A stretch of 34,166 nucleotides of DNA, taken from positions 1-34,166 of IMG/VR virus record IMGVR_UViG_3300045988_047610; one strand, written 5' to 3'. Shown piece after piece: positions 1-34,166 of this stretch. The notes below the pieces were generated by a model that saw only the letters and a program-made list of their open reading frames with translations, did no database searches and had not been told where the DNA came from. This DNA comes from a virus. Position numbers and translations under genes: made by a program. Every line of letters starts with the position of its first letter. Positions within the stretch are counted from its first letter, which is position 1.

Positions 1-119
1 ATTCACAGTTTAGTTATGGTGAATGACGAATACAATACATTCAATTACAGATTATTAAAAAAGAAGTGTGAAGCGCTAGAAACCGAAAATGCAAAACTAA
101 AAAATAGTATAAAAAAAAT
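1..119. repeat. Left copy of the 119-bp terminal overlap (identical to 34048-34166)
   Basis: Compared base by base. attcacagtt...gtataaaaaaaat occurs at both ends. Position 120 (c) continues the reading frame. Confidence 0.95.
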
Positions 120-8252: not shown

Positions 8253-8615
8253 ATGCCTATTATTAACCCAATGTATTTGTATTTGATTGAGGTACTACAT
8301 AATATTGATGTGCTTAATCAAGGTTTGTTTATTATGCTAACCATTGTGATATGTGGCTTTTTTGCTATATGGCTTGCAGATGATGAAGTACGGGAGTTAT
8401 CTAAGCCGCATAAAGGAAAAATCATTGCGTTATTTGTGGTGTTCGTAATTAGTGGATTAATAGCGTTATTAGTACCTACCAAAGATGCAATGTATAAAAT
8501 GCTATTGGCGCATTATGTAACAACTGATAATATCCAGCTTGTAAACGATGCTATCAAAGTTAATTTACAAGACTATTTGAACATGTTAGGGGAAACGGTT
8601 AAGAATTTAAGATAA
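8253..8615 (+). CDS. Membrane protein (about 120 aa, 2-3 TM segments)
   Basis: ATG 8253 lies 8 nt after GGGG (8241-8244). ATG 8247 is only 2 nt away. Hydrophobic stretches LFIMLTIVICGFFAIWL and IIALFVVFVISGLIALLV. Confidence 0.5.
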   Translation: MPIINPMYLYLIEVLHNIDVLNQGLFIMLTIVICGFFAIWLADDEVRELSKPHKGKIIALFVVFVISGLIALLVPTKDAMYKMLLAHYVTTDNIQLVNDAIKVNLQDYLNMLGETVKNLR

Positions 8616-8635
8616 TGAACCATACGGGGGAATAC

Positions 8636-9139
8636 ATGACGGATAAAGAATACAGGGAATTAGGAAAAGAATACCTAGAACCGATTAAATTAATTTCAAT
8701 GAAAATTAAATCATTGAAAGAAGATCTAAAGCATTTGCAATCCGATATAACAACGATTGGGGCAGTTGATTATAGTAAGGAACGTTTAAGCGGTGGCGGA
8801 ACGCCGGGCGGGTTAGACCGTCAAATAGTACGCCTTGAAAGTAAACGCGATGCCGTACATAAAGAAATAGGTGCGTTAATTGATGAACGCGAAACGGCGG
8901 CGGATATCATCAACCAATGCACCATAGGGAAAACCAATATATTATTAATGCGTGAATACATCGACGGGGAAAGCGCAAAATATGCTAAAAGTTTTACTGA
9001 TTTAGGTAAAACGCAAGCCGCAGAATTGAAAACACTAGGCCTTATTAAAGTAGGGAAATTTTTACATGATACGTATTATCCAAGCATGTATACAGGGAAA
9101 TCGGTACAAGTCGAACTATACCGAACTACAACGGAATAA
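8636..9139 (+). CDS. Putative late-gene transcriptional regulator (RinA/ArpU/DUF1492-like, sigma region-4-like C-terminus); tentative
   Basis: Last gene before the packaging module. ILLMREYIDGES...TQAAELKTLGLIKVGKFL resembles r4-type HTH regulators. ATG 8636 follows GGGGGA; the alternative start at 8615 overlaps the upstream stop. Confidence 0.4.
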   Translation: MTDKEYRELGKEYLEPIKLISMKIKSLKEDLKHLQSDITTIGAVDYSKERLSGGGTPGGLDRQIVRLESKRDAVHKEIGALIDERETAADIINQCTIGKTNILLMREYIDGESAKYAKSFTDLGKTQAAELKTLGLIKVGKFLHDTYYPSMYTGKSVQVELYRTTTE

Positions 9140-9216
9140 TACGGAAAAGCTATATATAGTATAATTATATTGTCAAATGATGCTTAAAAGGTCATTGGCG
9201 TAATTCTCCTATATAG

Positions 9217-9256
9217 CACAATGCACAGGGGAACTTTGGGCCGTTCCCCTATTGTG
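9217..9256 (+). promoter_or_regulatory. Stem-loop (outer CACAAT/ATTGTG, inner AGGGGAAC/GTTCCCCT, 8-nt loop)
   Basis: Read from the sequence. Lies about 80 nt after the stop of 8636-9139. It is followed only by TATTGT, so it is a weak terminator at best. Confidence 0.35.
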
Positions 9257-9424
9257 TATTGTAAACCGATACCGATAAAATAGAATTCCTTTCAAACATA
9301 CACAGCCATAAAAGACAATCCTATCAAATATAAATATGTACTTCCAAGCACAACAACAATAAACCTAATTTCATGTGATCCATATCGGTATTGGTTTAGA
9401 GTACACATATCAAACATTGAAAAC

Positions 9425-9574
9425 TGGGGCCGTTCGGTTTCCTAGGAACTAGGCCACGGGCCTACGCCGTTGAGAGTGCGGCGGTATGGCTCCGGTTTTG
9501 AGTGTTTAATACATGACAAATGAATAAAGCTATCAGAATATGAGGTATATCCACGGCGATATATCTCATTTTTT
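9425..9574 (+). ncRNA. Candidate structured RNA: GC-rich hairpin cluster ending in an intrinsic terminator (hypothetical)
   Basis: Hairpins: CCTAG-GAA-CTAGG (9441-9453), AGGCC-ACG-GGCCT (9451-9463) and CGCCG-N9-CGGCG (9465-9483). These are followed by the terminator at 9540-9574. No coding potential. No promoter was identified. Confidence 0.3.
9540..9574 (+). terminator. Intrinsic terminator candidate (12-bp AT-rich stem with one G-U pair, loop CACGGC, T5 tail)
   Basis: ATGAGGTATATC / GATATATCTCAT followed by TTTTT. Confidence 0.5.
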
Positions 9575-9695
9575 GTATAAAAGTAACATTTGATTATTGA
9601 AAACTGAACATAATGCACATTTTTTATTTTAAGAGATATCACCTTTCATAGTTTCCAGTGATCTTTTAGTGCGGCGTGTTCGGTTTTGAGTAATT

Positions 9696-9729
9696 AAAAA
9701 AGCCGCCCTGTGTAGGCGGCCTTTATTTT
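9696..9729. terminator. Bidirectional intrinsic terminator
   Basis: AAAAAA-GCCGCC-ctgtgta-GGCGGC-CTTTATTTT. There is a U-tract on both strands. It sits directly after the stop of the minus-strand ORF 9731-9886 and at the end of the + strand early region. Confidence 0.75.
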
Positions 9730-9730
9730 G

Positions 9731-9886
9731 TTATTCGTAGTAGTGGCAAGCGATAACTTCGTTTGTGTTATTGTCGATTAATTGCCATTCAAAACCGAAA
9801 CTCATTGTACTGATGAAATCGGAAGCATCTGTTTTGTTTTCAAATTTCCATGTTTTGTTTGTGTTTACATCTTTAAGTGTTAGCAT
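9731..9886 (-). CDS. Unannotated 51-aa acidic protein (MLTLKDVNTNKTWKFENKTDASDFISTMSFGFEWQLIDNNTNEVIACHYYE)
   Basis: AAGGAGAA SD lies 7 nt upstream of ATG (9886-9884). Consensus promoter upstream and terminator immediately downstream. Below the 60-aa cut-off of the ORF track. Confidence 0.6.
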   Translation of the reverse strand: MLTLKDVNTNKTWKFENKTDASDFISTMSFGFEWQLIDNNTNEVIACHYYE

Positions 9887-9938
9887 TTTAAATTCTCCTT
9901 TTTGAATACTTGCGTTTTCTGATGTATCTTATGGCTTA

Positions 9939-9967
9939 ATTATACTTGCGTTTTCGCAAGTAGTCAA
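9939..9967 (-). promoter_or_regulatory. Near-consensus sigma-A/sigma-70 promoter: TTGACT - 17 nt - TATAAT (minus strand)
   Basis: -35 = 9967-9962 and -10 = 9944-9939 on the minus strand. The spacer is exactly 17 nt and is occupied by the operator palindrome. Confidence 0.7.
9943..9962. promoter_or_regulatory. Operator O4: 20-bp palindrome TACTTGCG-TTTT-CGCAAGTA, same family as the immunity-region operators. A half-site TACTTGCGTTTTC lies at 9907-9919.
   Basis: Perfect 8-bp arms. Same CTTGCG-N4-CGCAAG core as 33557-33574, 33594-33609 and 33663-33680. Confidence 0.65.
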
Positions 9968-10018
9968 TAGGGAAATTAAAAATTTTTCAAAAAGTTTTGT
10001 GAAGGTGGTGAAAAGCTA

Positions 10019-10207
10019 GTGAATATCATATGTACAAAATCAAAATGCCTTAACAACAAAGGCGGCAGATGTATAGCTAACGAAATATATTATGACGGCT
10101 TATGCCAAACATATTGCACTAGCCAACACGCCAGCAAGCAGCACGCGGGAATATGCCAACGATCACATGGCAGAATGAAAAGCAAAGATAACAACATACT
10201 ACGATAG
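10019..10207 (+). CDS. Small Cys-rich protein (62 aa), DUF1540-like pattern (tentative)
   Basis: GTG start 8 nt after GAAGGTGGTG. C-x4-C...C-x13-C-x3-C spacing (ICTKSKCLNNKGGRCIANEIYYDGLCQTYC). Confidence 0.4.
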   Translation: MNIICTKSKCLNNKGGRCIANEIYYDGLCQTYCTSQHASKQHAGICQRSHGRMKSKDNNILR

Positions 10208-10218
10208 GGGGTGAAACA

Positions 10219-10590
10219 ATGGCAAAAACTACATATAAGGACTGGGAAGCAGAAGAAAAGATTTTGCTTTTACAAGGCTGGGCGCGTAACGGTTTAACAA
10301 ATGAACAGATTGCCAGCAATATGGATATTGTTGTTTCTACCTTATGGGAATGGCGCAAGAAATCACCGAAAATATCAAACGCCTTAAAAATAGGAAAAGA
10401 CGAAGCGGACATACAAGTTGAAAATGCACTTTATAAAGCAGCGTTGGAAGGTAATACAACGGCTATGATTTTCTGGCTTAAAAATCGACGTTCTAAAGAA
10501 TGGCGCGATAAGATACAACAGGAAATTACAACAGAAAGCGCCGTTAAGTTGGTTATTGATAATAACGAATTGAGTGATACAGATGAGTAA
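10219..10590 (+). CDS. terS: Terminase small subunit
   Basis: HTH GLTNEQIASNMDIVVSTLWEWRKK and AMIFWLKNRRSKEWRDK are typical of TerS. Lies immediately upstream of TerL. Confidence 0.8.
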   Translation: MAKTTYKDWEAEEKILLLQGWARNGLTNEQIASNMDIVVSTLWEWRKKSPKISNALKIGKDEADIQVENALYKAALEGNTTAMIFWLKNRRSKEWRDKIQQEITTESAVKLVIDNNELSDTDE

Positions 10591-31559: not shown

Positions 31560-32612
31560 TTAACCAAAAATATTGGCAACTTTATCGGCTGCCTTTAGTC
31601 GCATATCATCTGAAAAATGAACGTATGTTTTTAATACCGTCGGTAGACTATCACCTAATAGGGCGGATACTGTTTTTATATCTACGCCGTTTGATAATAA
31701 TTTAGTTGCGTATGTATGGCGTAGATCATGAATGGAGTTATTAGGTAAGAAACTTTTCATTATTTGCGATGCGCCCCAACTGCTGCTAATTCTATTATTA
31801 AAAAGGCGGCCAGTTGAATATGTTCCTTTGTAATCTTTCAATATTCTTGCTAATACTGGCGGTATAGGTAGTTGCCGATAGCTATTTTTTGATTTAAGCG
31901 GTTTTAATGCGTATTTATTGTAATCAATCGCCCCAAATTGCTGCACTACGTTTATGATGTTGTTATCCAAATCAACATTTTCCCAAGTAAGGCCGATAAT
32001 TTCTCCGTATCTCATGCCGGTATAGGCAGCAATAGAAAATATAACATAGTATTTATAGTTTCTATCCTTTACGGCGTTTAAAAATGTTTCTATTTCTATA
32101 TCTGATAACGCCTTTATTTTAATAGGCTTATTATTTTTAAAACGTGGTATAACTTTTAATTCGTTTATAGGAATTATTTTATATTGGTATACCGCATAAC
32201 TAAATAAACGCTGAATTATGCCCAAGGCAAGGTTTTTGGAAGCCGTTGCATATGTTGTATCGTTTAATATGCGTTTCACTTGATACGGCGTAATATTCGC
32301 AATTTTTTCGCTAAATATAGGTTTGAATATATCGAACGTACGCACATAAGCGCGGTATGTATTAAATGCGCGTGGCTTGTTTTCTCTAATGTAAATGTTA
32401 AAAAAATCAATAAGAGTTATATTTCTAAGACTATCATCGGTTGCGGTGATAGTCTTTTTTAATTTATCAATGATCGTTTGAGCGTGGATTTTTGCCGCCT
32501 TTTGTGTTTCAAAACCCTGTTTAGATTTCTGGCGCCAGCGGTTGCCGTCCTTGTATGAAACGATACATTGATACCCTTTATCCTTTTTTCTTATGGTTAT
32601 ATTGCATTGCAT
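31560..32612 (-). CDS. int: Tyrosine-type site-specific integrase
   Basis: N-terminal arm-binding-like ITIRKKDKGYQCIVSYKDGNRWRQKSKQGF. Catalytic GMRYGEI, HDLRHTYAT and LKTYVH (R...H-x-x-R...Y). Confidence 0.9.
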   Translation of the reverse strand: MQCNITIRKKDKGYQCIVSYKDGNRWRQKSKQGFETQKAAKIHAQTIIDKLKKTITATDDSLRNITLIDFFNIYIRENKPRAFNTYRAYVRTFDIFKPIFSEKIANITPYQVKRILNDTTYATASKNLALGIIQRLFSYAVYQYKIIPINELKVIPRFKNNKPIKIKALSDIEIETFLNAVKDRNYKYYVIFSIAAYTGMRYGEIIGLTWENVDLDNNIINVVQQFGAIDYNKYALKPLKSKNSYRQLPIPPVLARILKDYKGTYSTGRLFNNRISSSWGASQIMKSFLPNNSIHDLRHTYATKLLSNGVDIKTVSALLGDSLPTVLKTYVHFSDDMRLKAADKVANIFG

Positions 32613-32790
32613 CGTCTAATTCCTTTAATGAATAACTTGCTATAAATTGTGCGCCGATAGTTAGGGCAACAACTATAAGCATCAAAATATATCTGTGCTC
32701 TTTCCAATCCATAAAGCCTAATATCATACCGATAATAAGATATAGAATACTTTGATAAAACGCCACGTTGATTGCATCTTTTTTACTCAT
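32578..32790 (-). CDS. Small two-TM membrane protein in the lysogeny module (superinfection-exclusion candidate)
   Basis: Hydrophobic ILYLIIGMILGF and ILMLIVVALTIGAQFI. Co-oriented with repressor and integrase. The function is only inferred from position. Confidence 0.45.
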   Translation of the reverse strand: MSKKDAINVAFYQSILYLIIGMILGFMDWKEHRYILMLIVVALTIGAQFIASYSLKELDDAMQYNHKKKG

Positions 32791-33127
32791 GGTATACCCC
32801 TTTATTTAACAATATATGCGCGAATGTATCCGCATCATGTTCTAGTTTTTTGCGTAAATCGGCATCTATTTCCTTAAATAAATCATAATCCTTATGAAGA
32901 AATATATGCCCTAATTGATGTGCAAGCGCTATACGTTGCTGGCGCCTACTTAACCGGCTATTAATAACAATAGCCTTTTTAATCTCCGGTTTAATCATTA
33001 TGCCGCTAACGCAAGCCGGCAATGGTTTATATATTACTTTAATATCTAATTTACTTGCTATATAGCGCGGTTCGTTTGAGCCGTGCGAATTAATCAAATC
33101 TAAGACAAAAGAACACATATTGAACAT
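32783..33127 (-). CDS. ImmA/IrrE-family (COG2856) metallopeptidase homologue with HQLGH instead of HEXXH
   Basis: RIALAHQLGHIFLH...EHDADTFA compared with the family pattern f.laHElgH..lh...E.eAn.FA. Located directly downstream of the XRE repressor. AAGGGGAA SD. Confidence 0.7.
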   Translation of the reverse strand: MFNMCSFVLDLINSHGSNEPRYIASKLDIKVIYKPLPACVSGIMIKPEIKKAIVINSRLSRRQQRIALAHQLGHIFLHKDYDLFKEIDADLRKKLEHDADTFAHILLNKGVYHE

Positions 33128-33151: not shown

Positions 33152-33496
33152 TTAATCGTCTAATACCGCTTTTAATACTTTGGATATTTTAGCTTTTTGC
33201 GATGCCGTCAATTCACGATCACCATAATAACAAATTAAAGCATTATCCGTAATTTTCTTTAAATCAATACAATTATCTTGCTTTTTGACTTTAGGCGTTC
33301 CCTCTACGCCCTCAGTAAAATAAGAGGTTGGCACGTTGAAATAGTCAGCCAAAATCTTAACTGTTTTTAAACTGGGTATAGAGTTTTGGTTTTTCCAACG
33401 TGAAATAGTACTTTGAGCAATGCCAGTTTCCTTTGAAATTTGATACATGGAAACGCCAGTTTTACGCATTGCATCGCAGAATTTTTGGTAAAACAT
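33152..33496 (-). CDS. CI-like XRE-family repressor
   Basis: ATG 33496 lies 6 nt after GGAGG; the TTG start at 33511 in the track lies upstream of that SD. HTH GVSMYQISKETGIAQSTISRWKNQNSIPS. Divergent from the cro-like gene. Confidence 0.8.
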   Translation of the reverse strand: MFYQKFCDAMRKTGVSMYQISKETGIAQSTISRWKNQNSIPSLKTVKILADYFNVPTSYFTEGVEGTPKVKKQDNCIDLKKITDNALICYYGDRELTASQKAKISKVLKAVLDD

Positions 33497-33545
33497 ATTT
33501 AACCTCCGCAAACTATAAATAAAAATTTATAAAATTTACGAAATG

Positions 33546-33685
33546 TTTATTGGACTACTTGCGTTAACGCACGTATAATAAAGCCATAAGGTAGTTGCGA
33601 AAACGCAAGCAATCTTATAAACAATCGTGTTATAGCAAGTGGTGAAAGGTGAGATATTTATTACTTGCTATAACGCAAGTATAAC
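33546..33685. promoter_or_regulatory. Immunity switch: three operators inside or next to two tandem rightward promoters
   Basis: O1 = ACTTGCGTTAACGCACGT (33557-33574), O2 = GTTGCGAAAACGCAAG (33594-33609), O3 = ACTTGCTATAACGCAAGT (33663-33680). O1 fills the spacer of P1, which is TTGGAC(T) at 33550-33556 plus TATAAT at 33574-33579. O3 fills the spacer of P2, which is TTTATT at 33657-33662 plus TATAAC at 33680-33685. No leftward promoter for the repressor was identified. Confidence 0.65.
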
Positions 33686-33709
33686 ATTTTAAATAAGGGG
33701 GTGTAAACC

Positions 33710-33916
33710 ATAAAAACAACAGTAAAAAACATTTTCCAGCTAATGGATAAACAAGGCGTTACCGCCTATAAGTTATCTAAAGAAACTGGAATTAGTGAAA
33801 GCGTTATATCACGCTGGAAAAGTGGCGAACAATCGCCAAGCATTAGCAGCCTTGTAAAGGTCGCACATTTCTTTAATTGTGGTTTGTCTGAATTGATGAA
33901 AGGAAGCGAATTATGA
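33710..33916 (+). CDS. Cro-like XRE-family HTH protein; probable non-AUG start (ATA 33710), first ATG at 33743
   Basis: AAGGGGGTG SD (33694-33702) lies 7 nt before ATA 33710. No SD precedes ATG 33743. Starting at 33743 would delete helix 1 (VKNIFQLMDKQG) of the XRE fold. The HTH YKLSKETGISESVISRWKS is paralogous to the repressor HTH. Confidence 0.6.
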   Translation: MKTTVKNIFQLMDKQGVTAYKLSKETGISESVISRWKSGEQSPSISSLVKVAHFFNCGLSELMKGSEL

Positions 33917-34166
33917 AACTAACGTATACCGTGGAAGAAGTGGCCGAAGTTTTGGGCGTTTCTAAATCGTCGGTATACAACTTAAAAAATAATGGCACTA
34001 TACATGCTATTGAAAAACTACCCGGTTTGTTGTTTAGCGTTGAAGAAATTCACAGTTTAGTTATGGTGAATGACGAATACAATACATTCAATTACAGATT
34101 ATTAAAAAAGAAGTGTGAAGCGCTAGAAACCGAAAATGCAAAACTAAAAAATAGTATAAAAAAAAT
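33913..34166 (+). CDS. 5' part of the excisionase-family (HTH_17-like) DNA-binding protein gene; continues at 1-165
   Basis: MKLTYTVEEVAEVLGVSKSSVYNLKNNGTIHAIEK fits the excisionase/MerR-like HTH pattern. ATGA overlap with the cro-like stop. Confidence 0.6.
   Translation, partial: MKLTYTVEEVAEVLGVSKSSVYNLKNNGTIHAIEKLPGLLFSVEEIHSLVMVNDEYNTFNYRLLKKKCEALETENAKLKNSIKK
34048..34166. repeat. Right copy of the 119-bp terminal overlap
   Basis: Identical to 1-119. Confidence 0.95.

What the first reader, a model, noticed from the sequence alone, without database searches (positions are those of the whole stretch)
9696..9972. A second copy of the immunity promoter/operator cassette drives an orphan antisense 51-aa acidic protein far from the switch
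On the minus strand, 9967->9939 reads TTGACT - 17 nt - TATAAT. The spacer is filled by the perfect-armed palindrome TACTTGCG-TTTT-CGCAAGTA (9943-9962).

About 70 bp here (9903-9972, minus strand) aligns by eye at roughly 60/70 positions with 33546-33612 (+). That region is the rightward promoter P1 in front of the cro-like gene, with operators O1 and O2. The shared string is ...TATAAT(t/a)AAGCCATAAG...GAAAACGCAAG. The two copies are about 10.4 kb apart across the junction.

Downstream of the distal copy come an AAGGAGAA SD, an ATG at 9886, 51 codons, a stop at 9731, and then immediately a bidirectional terminator. This is the only minus-strand gene outside the lysogeny module. It is convergent with everything around it and is missing from the ORF track because it is under 60 aa. 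It has 8 D/E against 4 K.

Inference: it is an immediate-early product controlled by the repressor or Cro. Candidate roles are antirepressor, anti-defence protein (a small acidic protein behind a strong early promoter) or host-takeover factor. Its convergent transcription could also gate read-through from the early region into the late operon.
Basis: partly seen in the sequence, partly recalled or inferred. Interest (0 to 1): 0.78.

Follow-up and report, generated by a model that had tools for sequence, protein, structure and literature searches.

The report
Switch-controlled accessory gene cassette in phage
A Veillonella temperate phage carries a second copy of its lysis-lysogeny promoter and operator far from the switch, driving a small conserved protein in a slot where related phages swap unknown small genes, which marks these genes as candidate early counter-defence factors but does not prove it.

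Summary
On the minus strand, TTGACT-17-TATAAT (9967-9939) encloses the perfect palindrome TACTTGCG-N4-CGCAAGTA (9943-9962). It is followed by a ribosome-binding site, a 51-codon ORF (9886-9731) and a terminator. Its only significant match in the genome is the rightward immunity promoter with operator O1 (34/38 identical, E=1e-7).

The window is a circular 34,047-bp Veillonella parvula-type temperate phage.

The gene is not an orphan. It is intact in about 50 related phage contigs, with dN/dS about 0.16 and a confident ββαββ model, but no known family or fold.

The cassette heads a hypervariable cargo slot between the late activator and the late operon. The same promoter/operator drives at least seven unrelated small-protein families in relatives, and five relatives have an empty slot.

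A second promoter type lacks the operator and always carries its own small HTH gene (14 of 14). The operator-bearing type never does (0 of about 45).

Promoter type tracks immunity type perfectly (34:0 versus 0:10), although genes between them are reshuffled.

Best reading: an early accessory operon that resembles anti-CRISPR (acr-aca) operons and is shut off by the phage's own Cro or repressor. Protein function is unproven. An antirepressor role is unlikely.

The parts
9939..9967 (-). Distal promoter P_D: -35 TTGACT (9967-9962), 17-nt spacer, -10 TATAAT (9944-9939). An A/T-rich tract lies upstream (about 9968-10000).
   Evidence: It is the best sigma-70 consensus match in the genome (11/12 with a 17-nt spacer). 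Mean pairwise distance among 34 relatives is 0.036, against 0.157 at 4-fold sites of the adjacent ORF.
9943..9962 (.). Distal operator O_D: the perfect palindrome TACTTGCG-N4-CGCAAGTA, filling the -35/-10 spacer.
   Evidence: It is the only zero-mismatch site in the window. The arms are nearly invariant in 39 unique relatives, while the central 4 nt vary. Its half-sites (ACTTGC) equal those of O3 in immunity types I and II.
9907..9926 (.). Degenerate remnant of the second operator (the O2 equivalent), at the same 36-bp spacing as O1-O2. It lies in the 5' UTR.
   Evidence: It has 3 mismatches, all in one arm. The other arm drifts among relatives, for example CGCAAGTA to CGCAATTA. It is probably not under constraint.
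9893..9900 (-). Shine-Dalgarno sequence AAGGAGAA, 6 nt before the ATG.
   Evidence: It is conserved in all type A cassettes, whatever cargo gene follows.
9731..9886 (-). Gene for a 51-aa acidic protein (ββαββ fold), the first and here the only cargo gene of the slot.
   Evidence: The ORF is intact in about 50 loci with 33 protein variants. dN/dS is about 0.16. The AlphaFold2 model has pLDDT 91. There is no Pfam, PHROG, PADLOC, PDB or annotated BFVD match.
9695..9725 (-). Intrinsic terminator of the cargo transcript (11-bp stem followed by U6). It also forms a hairpin on the + strand.
   Evidence: It is retained in L034, where the promoter and gene are deleted, and absent in four empty-slot relatives.
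33551..33611 (+). Parent copy: the rightward immunity promoter (TGGACT-17-TATAAT, 33551-33579) with O1 (33556-33575) in its spacer and O2 (33592-33611) downstream.
33662..33707 (-). O3 (33662-33681), which overlaps the extended -10 of the leftward (repressor) promoter TTTACA-18-TATACT (33707-33678).
   Evidence: O3 is conserved across immunity types I and II, whereas O1 and O2 differ between them.
33152..33511 (-). Repressor (119 aa, XRE-family helix-turn-helix). An ImmA-like M78 protease gene lies downstream at 32783-33127 and the integrase gene at 31560-32612.
33710..33916 (+). Cro-like HTH protein. Its recognition helix is invariant in every phage that carries the type A cassette.
8615..9139 (+). 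Left border of the slot: a predicted late transcription regulator (phrog_36).
   Evidence: It is syntenic in all relatives.
9140..9700 (+). Conserved non-coding stretch carrying structured elements. The cargo cassette is inserted between this stretch and the first late gene.
10019..10207 (+). Right border of the slot: the first late-operon gene (62 aa, Cys-rich, phrog_33034), followed by terS at 10219-10590.

Best explanation
The feature is the control region and first gene of an accessory 'cargo' operon. It sits in a hypervariable slot between the late-regulator gene and the late operon of a Veillonella temperate phage.

Its promoter arose by duplication of the phage's rightward immunity promoter together with operators O1 and O2. 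O1 was kept as a perfect consensus palindrome between -35 and -10. O2 has decayed.

The promoter is close to consensus, so it should fire strongly as soon as naked phage DNA enters a cell or the prophage is induced. It yields a monocistronic mRNA of about 235 nt for the 51-aa protein. It is then shut off when Cro accumulates. In lysogens it is kept off by the repressor, at least in immunity type I phages such as this one. Either protein bound at 9943-9962 would occlude RNA polymerase.

In this way the phage's own switch proteins do the job that a dedicated small HTH regulator does in the alternative (type B) version of the same slot, and that Aca proteins do in anti-CRISPR operons.

The 51-aa acidic ββαββ protein and the other cargo proteins are most likely early-acting, dispensable host-interaction factors. 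Counter-defence is the leading guess.

What is shown: the sequence anatomy, the paralogy, the conservation, cargo swapping, the mutually exclusive regulators, and the association with immunity type.

What is inferred: binding by Cro or the repressor, the timing of expression, and the protein's function.

The confidence of 0.6 applies to the regulatory model. Confidence that the cargo is specifically anti-defence is about 0.3.
For: - Anatomy and paralogy.
- Promoter strength: it is the best sigma-70 match in the genome.
- Purifying selection on the promoter/operator: mean pairwise distance 0.036 against 0.157 at 4-fold sites of the ORF next to it. Operator arms are conserved while the central spacer varies.
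- Real protein gene: dN/dS about 0.16 over 41 distinct DNA sequences of the gene and pLDDT 91.
- Portable cassette: the same type A cassette drives orf51, or 62-aa, 54-aa, 105-aa, 100/112-aa and 65/79-aa proteins in relatives. Five relatives have an empty slot.
- Mutually exclusive regulators: type B promoters lack the operator and 14 of 14 carry a 58-65-aa XRE HTH gene in the operon. Of about 45 type A operons, none does.
- Association with immunity type: immunity types I, II and the L049 type give 34 A and 0 B. Types III and IV give 0 A and 10 B (Fisher p = 4e-10). Alleles of a gene lying between the two regions are shuffled (p = 0.72), and the adjacent terS type is also shuffled.
- Cro: its recognition helix is invariant across all carriers of type A, whereas the repressor helices of types I and II differ. 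O3, whose half-sites equal the distal operator's, overlaps the repressor promoter.
- Independent contexts: a distant homologue heads a small-gene operon that ends in a 64-aa RHH regulator, beside the lysin of another prophage.
- Published logic for Aca: strong immediate induction followed by repression, and RHH-type Aca proteins (PMC13551039).
Against: - There is no experimental evidence for transcription or for binding.
- Neighbouring non-coding DNA in the cassette is also highly conserved, so the operator arms do not stand out as a separate footprint.
- In 17 type II phages the distal operator stays type-I-like, although their own O1 and O2 differ. Matching to the resident repressor is therefore imperfect, and control there may be by Cro only, or leaky.
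- The loci are related, so the Fisher p-value overstates independence.
- No cargo protein resembles any known anti-defence or defence protein.
Confidence: 0.6

Rival explanations
1. Prophage-expressed moron. The cassette would be an autonomous promoter-gene-terminator unit expressed from the lysogen, giving the host a benefit such as superinfection exclusion or defence. The palindrome would be only a relic of the duplication.
For: - The architecture is classic for a moron: own promoter and terminator, opposite strand, present or absent among relatives.
- In type II phages the operator does not match the resident O1 and O2, so the promoter could be open in those lysogens.
Against: - A perfect operator fills the core promoter and is conserved 4-5 times better than synonymous sites.
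- Cassette type and immunity type are strictly associated.
- The operator-less version always brings its own HTH.
- No cargo protein matches PADLOC at a significant level; the only hits are weak (best E about 5e-4 to 5e-3) and none is to the 51-aa protein.
Confidence: 0.15
2. Antirepressor. The 51-aa protein would bind and inactivate the phage repressor. Its repressor-controlled promoter would create a positive feedback loop that commits the phage to lytic growth.
For: It is a small acidic protein behind a promoter that carries the immunity operator. Small antirepressors encoded away from the switch are known in other phages (own knowledge: 186 Tum, Gifsy antirepressors).
Against: - The gene is dispensable and is replaced by unrelated cargo in relatives with the same repressor.
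- The same conserved core (MSFGFEWQL) occurs with repressors that are only 36-40% identical to this one.
- A homologue sits in an unrelated prophage next to the lysin, with an RHH regulator.
- The switch already has an ImmA-type protease gene next to the repressor gene.
Confidence: 0.07
3. Auxiliary looping operator. The distal palindrome would mainly be a long-range partner that stabilises repressor oligomers at the switch, like lambda OL-OR or the flanking sites of phage 186. The ORF would be incidental.
For: It is the best consensus operator in the genome, better than O1, O2 or O3, and lies 10.5 kb from the switch.
Against: - Phages with the same immunity types (L034, L082, L088, L097) lack it entirely.
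- It always travels with a complete promoter, ribosome-binding site and cargo.
- The repressor is a short 119-aa protein, and nothing shows that it forms higher oligomers.
Confidence: 0.05
4. Transcriptional-interference or antisense device. What matters would be convergent transcription from P_D into the late-operon leader, which gates early-to-late read-through. The peptide would be irrelevant.
For: The cassette is inserted between a conserved, structured + strand leader and the first late gene. It faces that leader and ends in a hairpin that can form on both strands.
Against: - The protein is under strong purifying selection and has a confident fold.
- Empty-slot relatives do without the device.
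- Cargo length and number vary freely.
Confidence: 0.08

Closest known systems
Anti-CRISPR (acr-aca) operons regulated by Aca repressors (Aca1, Aca2, the AcrIIA1 N-terminal domain, RHH-type Aca)
   Same: - Small, fast-evolving, interchangeable accessory genes without known domains.
- A strong promoter whose core is overlapped by an inverted repeat.
- The whole unit is inserted between conserved phage genes.
- The type B version of this slot and the L176 homologue operon carry a small HTH or RHH regulator gene, as acr-aca operons do (PMC13551039, PMC8633003).
   Different: - In the window (type A) there is no regulator gene in the operon. The inverted repeat is a copy of the phage's own immunity operator.
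- No cargo protein is related to a known Acr, and no CRISPR inhibition has been shown.
- The HTH is only a generic XRE hit (HTH_3, E=6e-6). It has not been assigned to any Aca family.
Dispersed operators of phage immunity repressors (P1 C1 operators, N15 CB at repA, phiC31 conserved inverted repeats, mycobacteriophage L5 gp71 sites). This comparison rests on own knowledge.
   Same: The immunity repressor's recognition sequence recurs far from the immunity region, within or next to a promoter. A distant gene thereby joins the immunity regulon.
   Different: - Here there is only one extra functional-looking site.
- It is a wholesale duplicate of the promoter plus operator.
- It is attached to a portable, dispensable cargo slot, not to core early functions.
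Morons of lambdoid phages, as defined for HK97 and HK022 (own knowledge)
   Same: An autonomous promoter-gene-terminator unit lies between two conserved genes. It is often on the opposite strand and varies between relatives.
   Different: Morons are typically expressed from the repressed prophage. Here the core promoter carries the immunity operator, which predicts silence in the lysogen and an early burst on infection.
ImmR/ImmA-type immunity modules (ICEBs1, phage phi105)
   Same: The parent switch has an XRE repressor gene followed by an M78 (IrrE/ImmA-like) protease gene, a divergent cro-like gene, and three palindromic operators.
   Different: To my knowledge, no second distal promoter/operator copy has been described for those systems.

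Membership tests
Paralogue of the immunity promoter under Cro or repressor control | The operator matches the consensus of the resident immunity operators | tested here: met
   Zero mismatches to TACTTGCG-N4-CGCAAGTA. O1, O2 and O3 have 1, 2 and 1 mismatches.
Paralogue of the immunity promoter under Cro or repressor control | The operator overlaps the core promoter, so a bound protein would block RNA polymerase | tested here: met
   The operator fills the 17-nt spacer and overlaps both hexamers. The geometry is the same as O1 in the rightward immunity promoter.
Paralogue of the immunity promoter under Cro or repressor control | It co-occurs with the cognate immunity type across relatives | tested here: met
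   34 type A and 0 type B with immunity types I, II and L049. 0 type A and 10 type B with types III and IV. Markers lying between are shuffled. Caveat: it does not track the O1/O2 differences between types I and II.
Paralogue of the immunity promoter under Cro or repressor control | Physical binding of Cro or repressor, and regulated transcription | not testable with these tools
   This needs EMSA or footprinting, 5'-RACE or RNA-seq.
acr-aca (anti-CRISPR) operon | A product inhibits a CRISPR-Cas system | not testable with these tools
   There is no functional assay. Host CRISPR arrays could not be reached to look for self-targeting spacers.
acr-aca (anti-CRISPR) operon | A small HTH or RHH regulator gene (aca) lies in the operon | tested here: not met
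   The window operon is monocistronic. The feature is met in type B relatives (14 of 14 have an XRE HTH) and in L176 (RHH).
acr-aca (anti-CRISPR) operon | An inverted repeat overlaps a strong promoter | tested here: met
acr-aca (anti-CRISPR) operon | Sequence or structural similarity to a known Acr | tested here: not met
   Foldseek against the PDB gives a best E of 0.6. The profile against PDB sequences gives a best E of 0.05. BFVD returns only uncharacterised proteins.
Moron | Own promoter and own terminator flank the gene | tested here: met
Moron | Presence or absence polymorphism between otherwise syntenic phages | tested here: met
   Five relatives have an empty slot. Seven type A loci carry other cargo instead.
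Moron | Expression from the repressed prophage | not testable with these tools
   The operator position predicts the opposite. Lysogen RNA-seq is needed.
Antirepressor | Specific pairing with, or co-variation with, the cognate repressor | tested here: not met
   The same protein core is found with repressor types I to IV (36-100% identity to the window's repressor), and in an unrelated prophage.
WG_beta_rep (PF14903) repeat proteins | A significant match to the Pfam model | tested here: not met
   The 51-aa protein has no Pfam hit. Only the reverse search links residues 26-50 weakly to multi-repeat WG proteins. This is a resemblance to one β-hairpin, not membership.

The most novel reading that the evidence does not exclude
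The slot would be a counter-defence island of Negativicutes phages in which the shut-off regulator is interchangeable. One version brings its own Aca-like HTH. The other has copied the phage's rightward promoter and operator, so that Cro or the repressor acts as the Aca. The 51-aa ββαββ protein and the seven or so other cargo families would then be new anti-CRISPR or other anti-defence proteins. 'A copy of the immunity operator in front of small orphan genes' would become a new search key for such genes in loci that lack an aca gene.
Probability: 0.3. Interest if true: 0.72.

Novelty: new variant of a known kind. Interest (0 to 1): 0.55.

Why it matters
Many anti-defence loci cannot be found by the usual guilt-by-association with an aca gene, because they have none.

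If a duplicated immunity operator can replace the dedicated regulator, operator paralogues become a cheap computational marker for early accessory and counter-defence genes in temperate phages.

The locus also yields at least eight families of small proteins of unknown function, under selection, from phages of Veillonella. This is an abundant human oral and gut commensal whose phage biology is almost unstudied.

The two alternative regulatory designs in one slot form a natural experiment on how phages time the expression of costly early genes.

Tried and rejected
- GenBank phages: blastn of 9140-10218 found nothing. tblastn of the 51-aa protein found only chance hits with E >= 0.4.
- RNA searches: Rfam found nothing at gathering thresholds over the whole window. 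In E-value mode on 9100-10050 it returned only sub-threshold terminator-like hits. No tRNA or tmRNA was found.
- Protein family searches for the 51-aa protein and the cargo proteins (Pfam, PHROGs, PADLOC, PDB sequences, Foldseek against PDB and BFVD) gave no informative match. The weak profile link to WG_beta_rep repeats and the E=0.05 hit to the Csx29 N-terminus are treated as not significant.
- Immunity type of the variant cassette in L002-L004 (TGCTTGCGAAAACGGAAGTACAAT, whose right half-sites look like type II): an exact-pattern scan of IMG/VR found none. A second anchor-gene scan brought mostly unrelated 41-kb phages. The immunity type of these phages remains unknown.
- Operator footprint: I expected the operator arms to be more conserved than the flanking non-coding DNA, but the whole stretch of about 100 nt is conserved. 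Only the contrast with synonymous sites is informative.
- Readings rejected: the antirepressor, looping-operator and pure antisense readings, for the reasons given under the rivals.

Full report
**1. What is in the sequence**

Read on the minus strand, 9990-9690 contains these elements in order:
- an A/T-rich tract;
- a -35 hexamer TTGACT (9967-9962), a 17-nt spacer and a -10 hexamer TATAAT (9944-9939);
- a 5' UTR of about 45 nt with the ribosome-binding site AAGGAGAA (9900-9893);
- an ATG at 9886, 51 codons and TAA at 9733-9731;
- an 11-bp G+C-rich hairpin followed by six U.

The spacer is filled by the perfect palindrome TACTTGCG-AAAA-CGCAAGTA (9943-9962).

Allowing three mismatches, this 8-4-8 pattern occurs five times in 34 kb against 0.2 expected. 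Two sites are here (9943 perfect, 9907 degenerate). Three lie in the intergenic region between the divergent repressor and cro-like genes (33556, 33592, 33662).

The distal 70 nt finds its only significant non-self match at 33553-33590 (34/38 identical, E=1e-7), with a collinear second block. MAFFT gives about 80% identity over about 66 nt.

Across the whole genome, this promoter is the best match to the sigma-70 consensus (11/12 with optimal spacing). The rightward immunity promoter scores 10/12.

**2. Context**

Window bases 1-119 equal 34048-34166, so this is a circular assembly of 34,047 bp. The gene order is:
- integrase (31560-32612, minus strand);
- ImmA-like M78 protease (32783-33127, minus strand);
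- XRE repressor (33152-33511, minus strand);
- three operators;
- cro-like HTH gene (33710-33916, plus strand);
- early genes on the plus strand, including dUTPase;
- a phrog_36 transcription regulator (8615-9139);
- 560 nt of non-coding DNA;
- the cassette studied here;
- a 62-aa Cys-rich protein (10019-10207), terS, terL, a P22-type portal, and the remaining late genes.

O1 sits in the spacer of the rightward promoter and O2 lies just downstream. O3 overlaps the extended -10 of a leftward promoter that reads into the repressor gene.

The closest cellular relatives are prophages of Veillonella parvula. No GenBank phage is close.

**3. The ORF is a real gene, but of unknown family**

Eighteen homologues were found in metagenome proteins. 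The gene was then located in about 50 related contigs. It is intact in all of them, in 33 protein variants with an invariant core MSFGFEWQL.

Pairwise dN/dS is about 0.16, and variable sites concentrate at third codon positions (23/21/40 for positions 1/2/3).

AlphaFold2 gives a confident model (pLDDT 91) with a β-β-α-β-β fold.

Nothing informative matches it:
- Pfam, PHROGs and PADLOC give no hit.
- Foldseek against the PDB gives a best E of 0.6.
- BFVD returns only uncharacterised phage proteins.
- A profile search of 1.8 billion representative proteins finds only its own small family, plus weak matches of residues 26-50 to WG-repeat β-hairpins.

**4. The decisive comparative result**

Eighty IMG/VR contigs of this phage group were recovered, anchored on an early gene halfway between the switch and the cassette. 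The region between the late regulator and terS turns out to be a cargo slot.

(a) The promoter/operator cassette of the window (type A) is almost invariant in about 45 loci. It drives different genes in different loci:
- orf51 alone;
- orf51 plus a 105-aa, a 100/112-aa or a 65/79-aa protein;
- or, with no orf51 at all, a 62-aa, 54-aa or 105-aa protein.

None of these has a Pfam or PHROG family.

(b) Five loci have an empty slot. In four of them promoter, gene and terminator are all missing. In L034 only the terminator remains.

(c) Fourteen loci have a different promoter (type B: TTGACG-17-TATACT, with an upstream TTACAC-N5-GTGTAA repeat and no immunity operator). Every one of these operons contains a 58-65-aa XRE helix-turn-helix gene among the cargo. 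No type A operon does.

(d) Cassette type tracks immunity type.
- Phages whose repressor is 64-100% identical to the window's (types I and II), and the L049 type, all have operators built from TACTT(G/A)C half-sites and a Cro 59-100% identical to the window's. They carry type A in 34 of 34 cases.
- Phages with unrelated operators (types III and IV, repressor 36-42% identical) carry type B in 10 of 10 cases. Fisher's exact test gives p = 4e-10.
- The loci are not independent samples. However, the two allele classes of the anchor gene that lies between switch and slot are distributed at random with respect to cassette type (p = 0.72). The terS type next to the slot is also reshuffled. So recombination has repeatedly separated the two regions without breaking the association. 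This argues for functional coupling.

(e) Among type A loci, the 29-nt core promoter/operator differs at 3.6% of sites on average. The 4-fold degenerate sites of the ORF 50 nt away differ at 15.7%. The changes that do occur in the operator fall mostly in its central four bases.

**5. Which protein acts at the operator**

Type I and type II repressors differ in the recognition helix (AQSTISRW against PQSAFSRW). Their O1 and O2 differ accordingly (TACTTGCG against TACTTACT and TACTTATG). Even so, type II phages keep the type-I-like distal operator.

What all type A carriers share is Cro, whose recognition helix ISESVISRW is invariant, and O3, whose half-sites (ACTTGC) are those of the distal operator.

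O3 overlaps the repressor's promoter. It is therefore the site where a Cro-type protein would be expected to act.

From this I infer that Cro is the universal shut-off factor of the type A cassette. In type I phages such as this window, the repressor should also hold it silent in the lysogen, because the distal site is a better O1 than O1 itself.

One variant cassette (L002-L004) carries type-II-like right half-sites in both operators. I could not recover the immunity region of those phages.

**6. What it most likely does**

The design has four features:
- a near-consensus promoter;
- an operator in the core of that promoter;
- tiny, fast-swapping cargo genes of unknown function;
- either a dedicated small DNA-binding regulator or a borrowed one.

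This is the design of anti-CRISPR (acr-aca) operons. There a strong burst on DNA entry is followed by repression, and Aca regulators (HTH or RHH) bind inverted repeats in the promoter (PMC13551039, PMC8633003).

The orf51 family supports the analogy independently. A distant homologue (P0023) heads an operon of three small unknown proteins followed by a 64-aa RHH protein, at the lysin-proximal end of an unrelated prophage. Another (P0038) is the first gene of a small-gene operon next to an integrase.

This is association, not proof. No cargo protein resembles any known anti-defence or defence protein.

The antirepressor reading is disfavoured. The gene is dispensable, it occurs with four or five repressor types, and the switch already has an ImmA-type protease.

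A looping-operator role is disfavoured because phages with the same immunity type lack the site.

A pure interference role is disfavoured by the strong selection on the protein.

**7. Position relative to late transcription**

In empty-slot relatives, the conserved non-coding stretch that follows the late regulator is joined directly to the ribosome-binding site of the first late gene. The cargo cassette is therefore inserted, in antisense, inside what looks like the late-operon leader.

That leader contains strongly structured, strand-specific elements. Late transcription would have to cross the cassette, and it could silence the cassette by interference.

**8. Verdict**

The regulatory interpretation is supported by comparative genomics, though not by experiment. 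The functional guesses narrow to an early accessory factor, probably counter-defence.

This is a new variant of known kinds: dispersed immunity operators, morons and acr-aca-like operons. It is not a new category.

Noticed in passing
window 9412-9508 (+): A structured element of about 100 nt. It has a 14-bp closing stem enclosing three hairpins, like a cloverleaf, and folds with z = -5.65. In 14 sequence variants, 10 of 38 pairs show compensatory double changes; one variant, from another Veillonella prophage (L010), has an expanded middle arm. The element is present in only 15 loci, so it is an insertion/deletion difference between close relatives. It has no Rfam family and is not called as a tRNA.
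   Followed up: partly
window 9588-9700 (+): A second structured element, which shares the closing-stem sequence (UUGAAAACUG.../...CGGUUUUGAG) with the first. It folds strongly only on the + strand (z = -6.3 against -1.3). It is conserved in all relatives and lies directly next to the cargo insertion point. It might be part of a late-operon leader or an antitermination device.
   Followed up: partly
window 9218-9262 and 9540-9569 (+): Two further conserved hairpins lie in the same non-coding stretch. The second has a 12-bp stem followed by UUUUUU (z = -5.9) and looks like an intrinsic terminator between the late-regulator gene and the late genes. It is conserved even in distant Veillonella prophages (L009, L010).
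   Followed up: partly
window 9157-9165 (+): A perfect -10 hexamer (TATAAT at 9160-9165) lies just after the late-regulator stop codon, with no recognisable -35. It is a candidate activator-dependent late promoter, placed upstream of the structured leader.
   Followed up: no
window 33701-33745 (+): The cro-like gene has no ATG, GTG or TTG at the position where relatives start (ATG ATT AAA). The window and many relatives read ACC ATA AAA there, 8 nt after a GGGGGTG ribosome-binding site. The first ATG (33743) would remove helix 1 of the HTH domain. This suggests an AUA start codon or deliberately weak Cro translation.
   Followed up: partly
window 1-119 and 34048-34166: An exact 119-bp terminal overlap shows that the window is a circularly closed assembly of a 34,047-bp genome.
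   Followed up: yes
L176 5870-6980 (prophage in GCA_034175545.1): A distant homologue of the 51-aa protein heads an operon: orf51-like, then a 64-aa protein, a 99-aa protein and a 64-aa RHH protein. The operon lies between the M15 endolysin region and the host thrC gene. The motif TGTTAATATATAA is repeated in front of the first and third genes.
   Followed up: partly
L008 18209-17690 (-) and the other type B loci: Type B cargo operons carry a 58-65-aa XRE HTH gene. Their promoter has a TTACAC-N5-GTGTAA inverted repeat upstream of -35, CGTGT repeats in the spacer, and a conserved GGGGAACGAACCCC hairpin in the 5' UTR.
   Followed up: partly
L002-L004, about 9925-9990: A variant type A cassette in which both operators have right halves like those of type II immunity (CGGAAGTACAAT and AACGTAAGT). 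This suggests gene conversion from a type II rightward promoter. The immunity region of these phages could not be retrieved.
   Followed up: partly
window 10019-10207 (+): The first gene of the late operon encodes a 62-aa Cys-rich protein (phrog_33034, unknown function) directly upstream of terS.
   Followed up: no
L008 11521-11916: Fifteen tandem copies of an 18-nt unit in the early region of the related V. parvula prophage.
   Followed up: no
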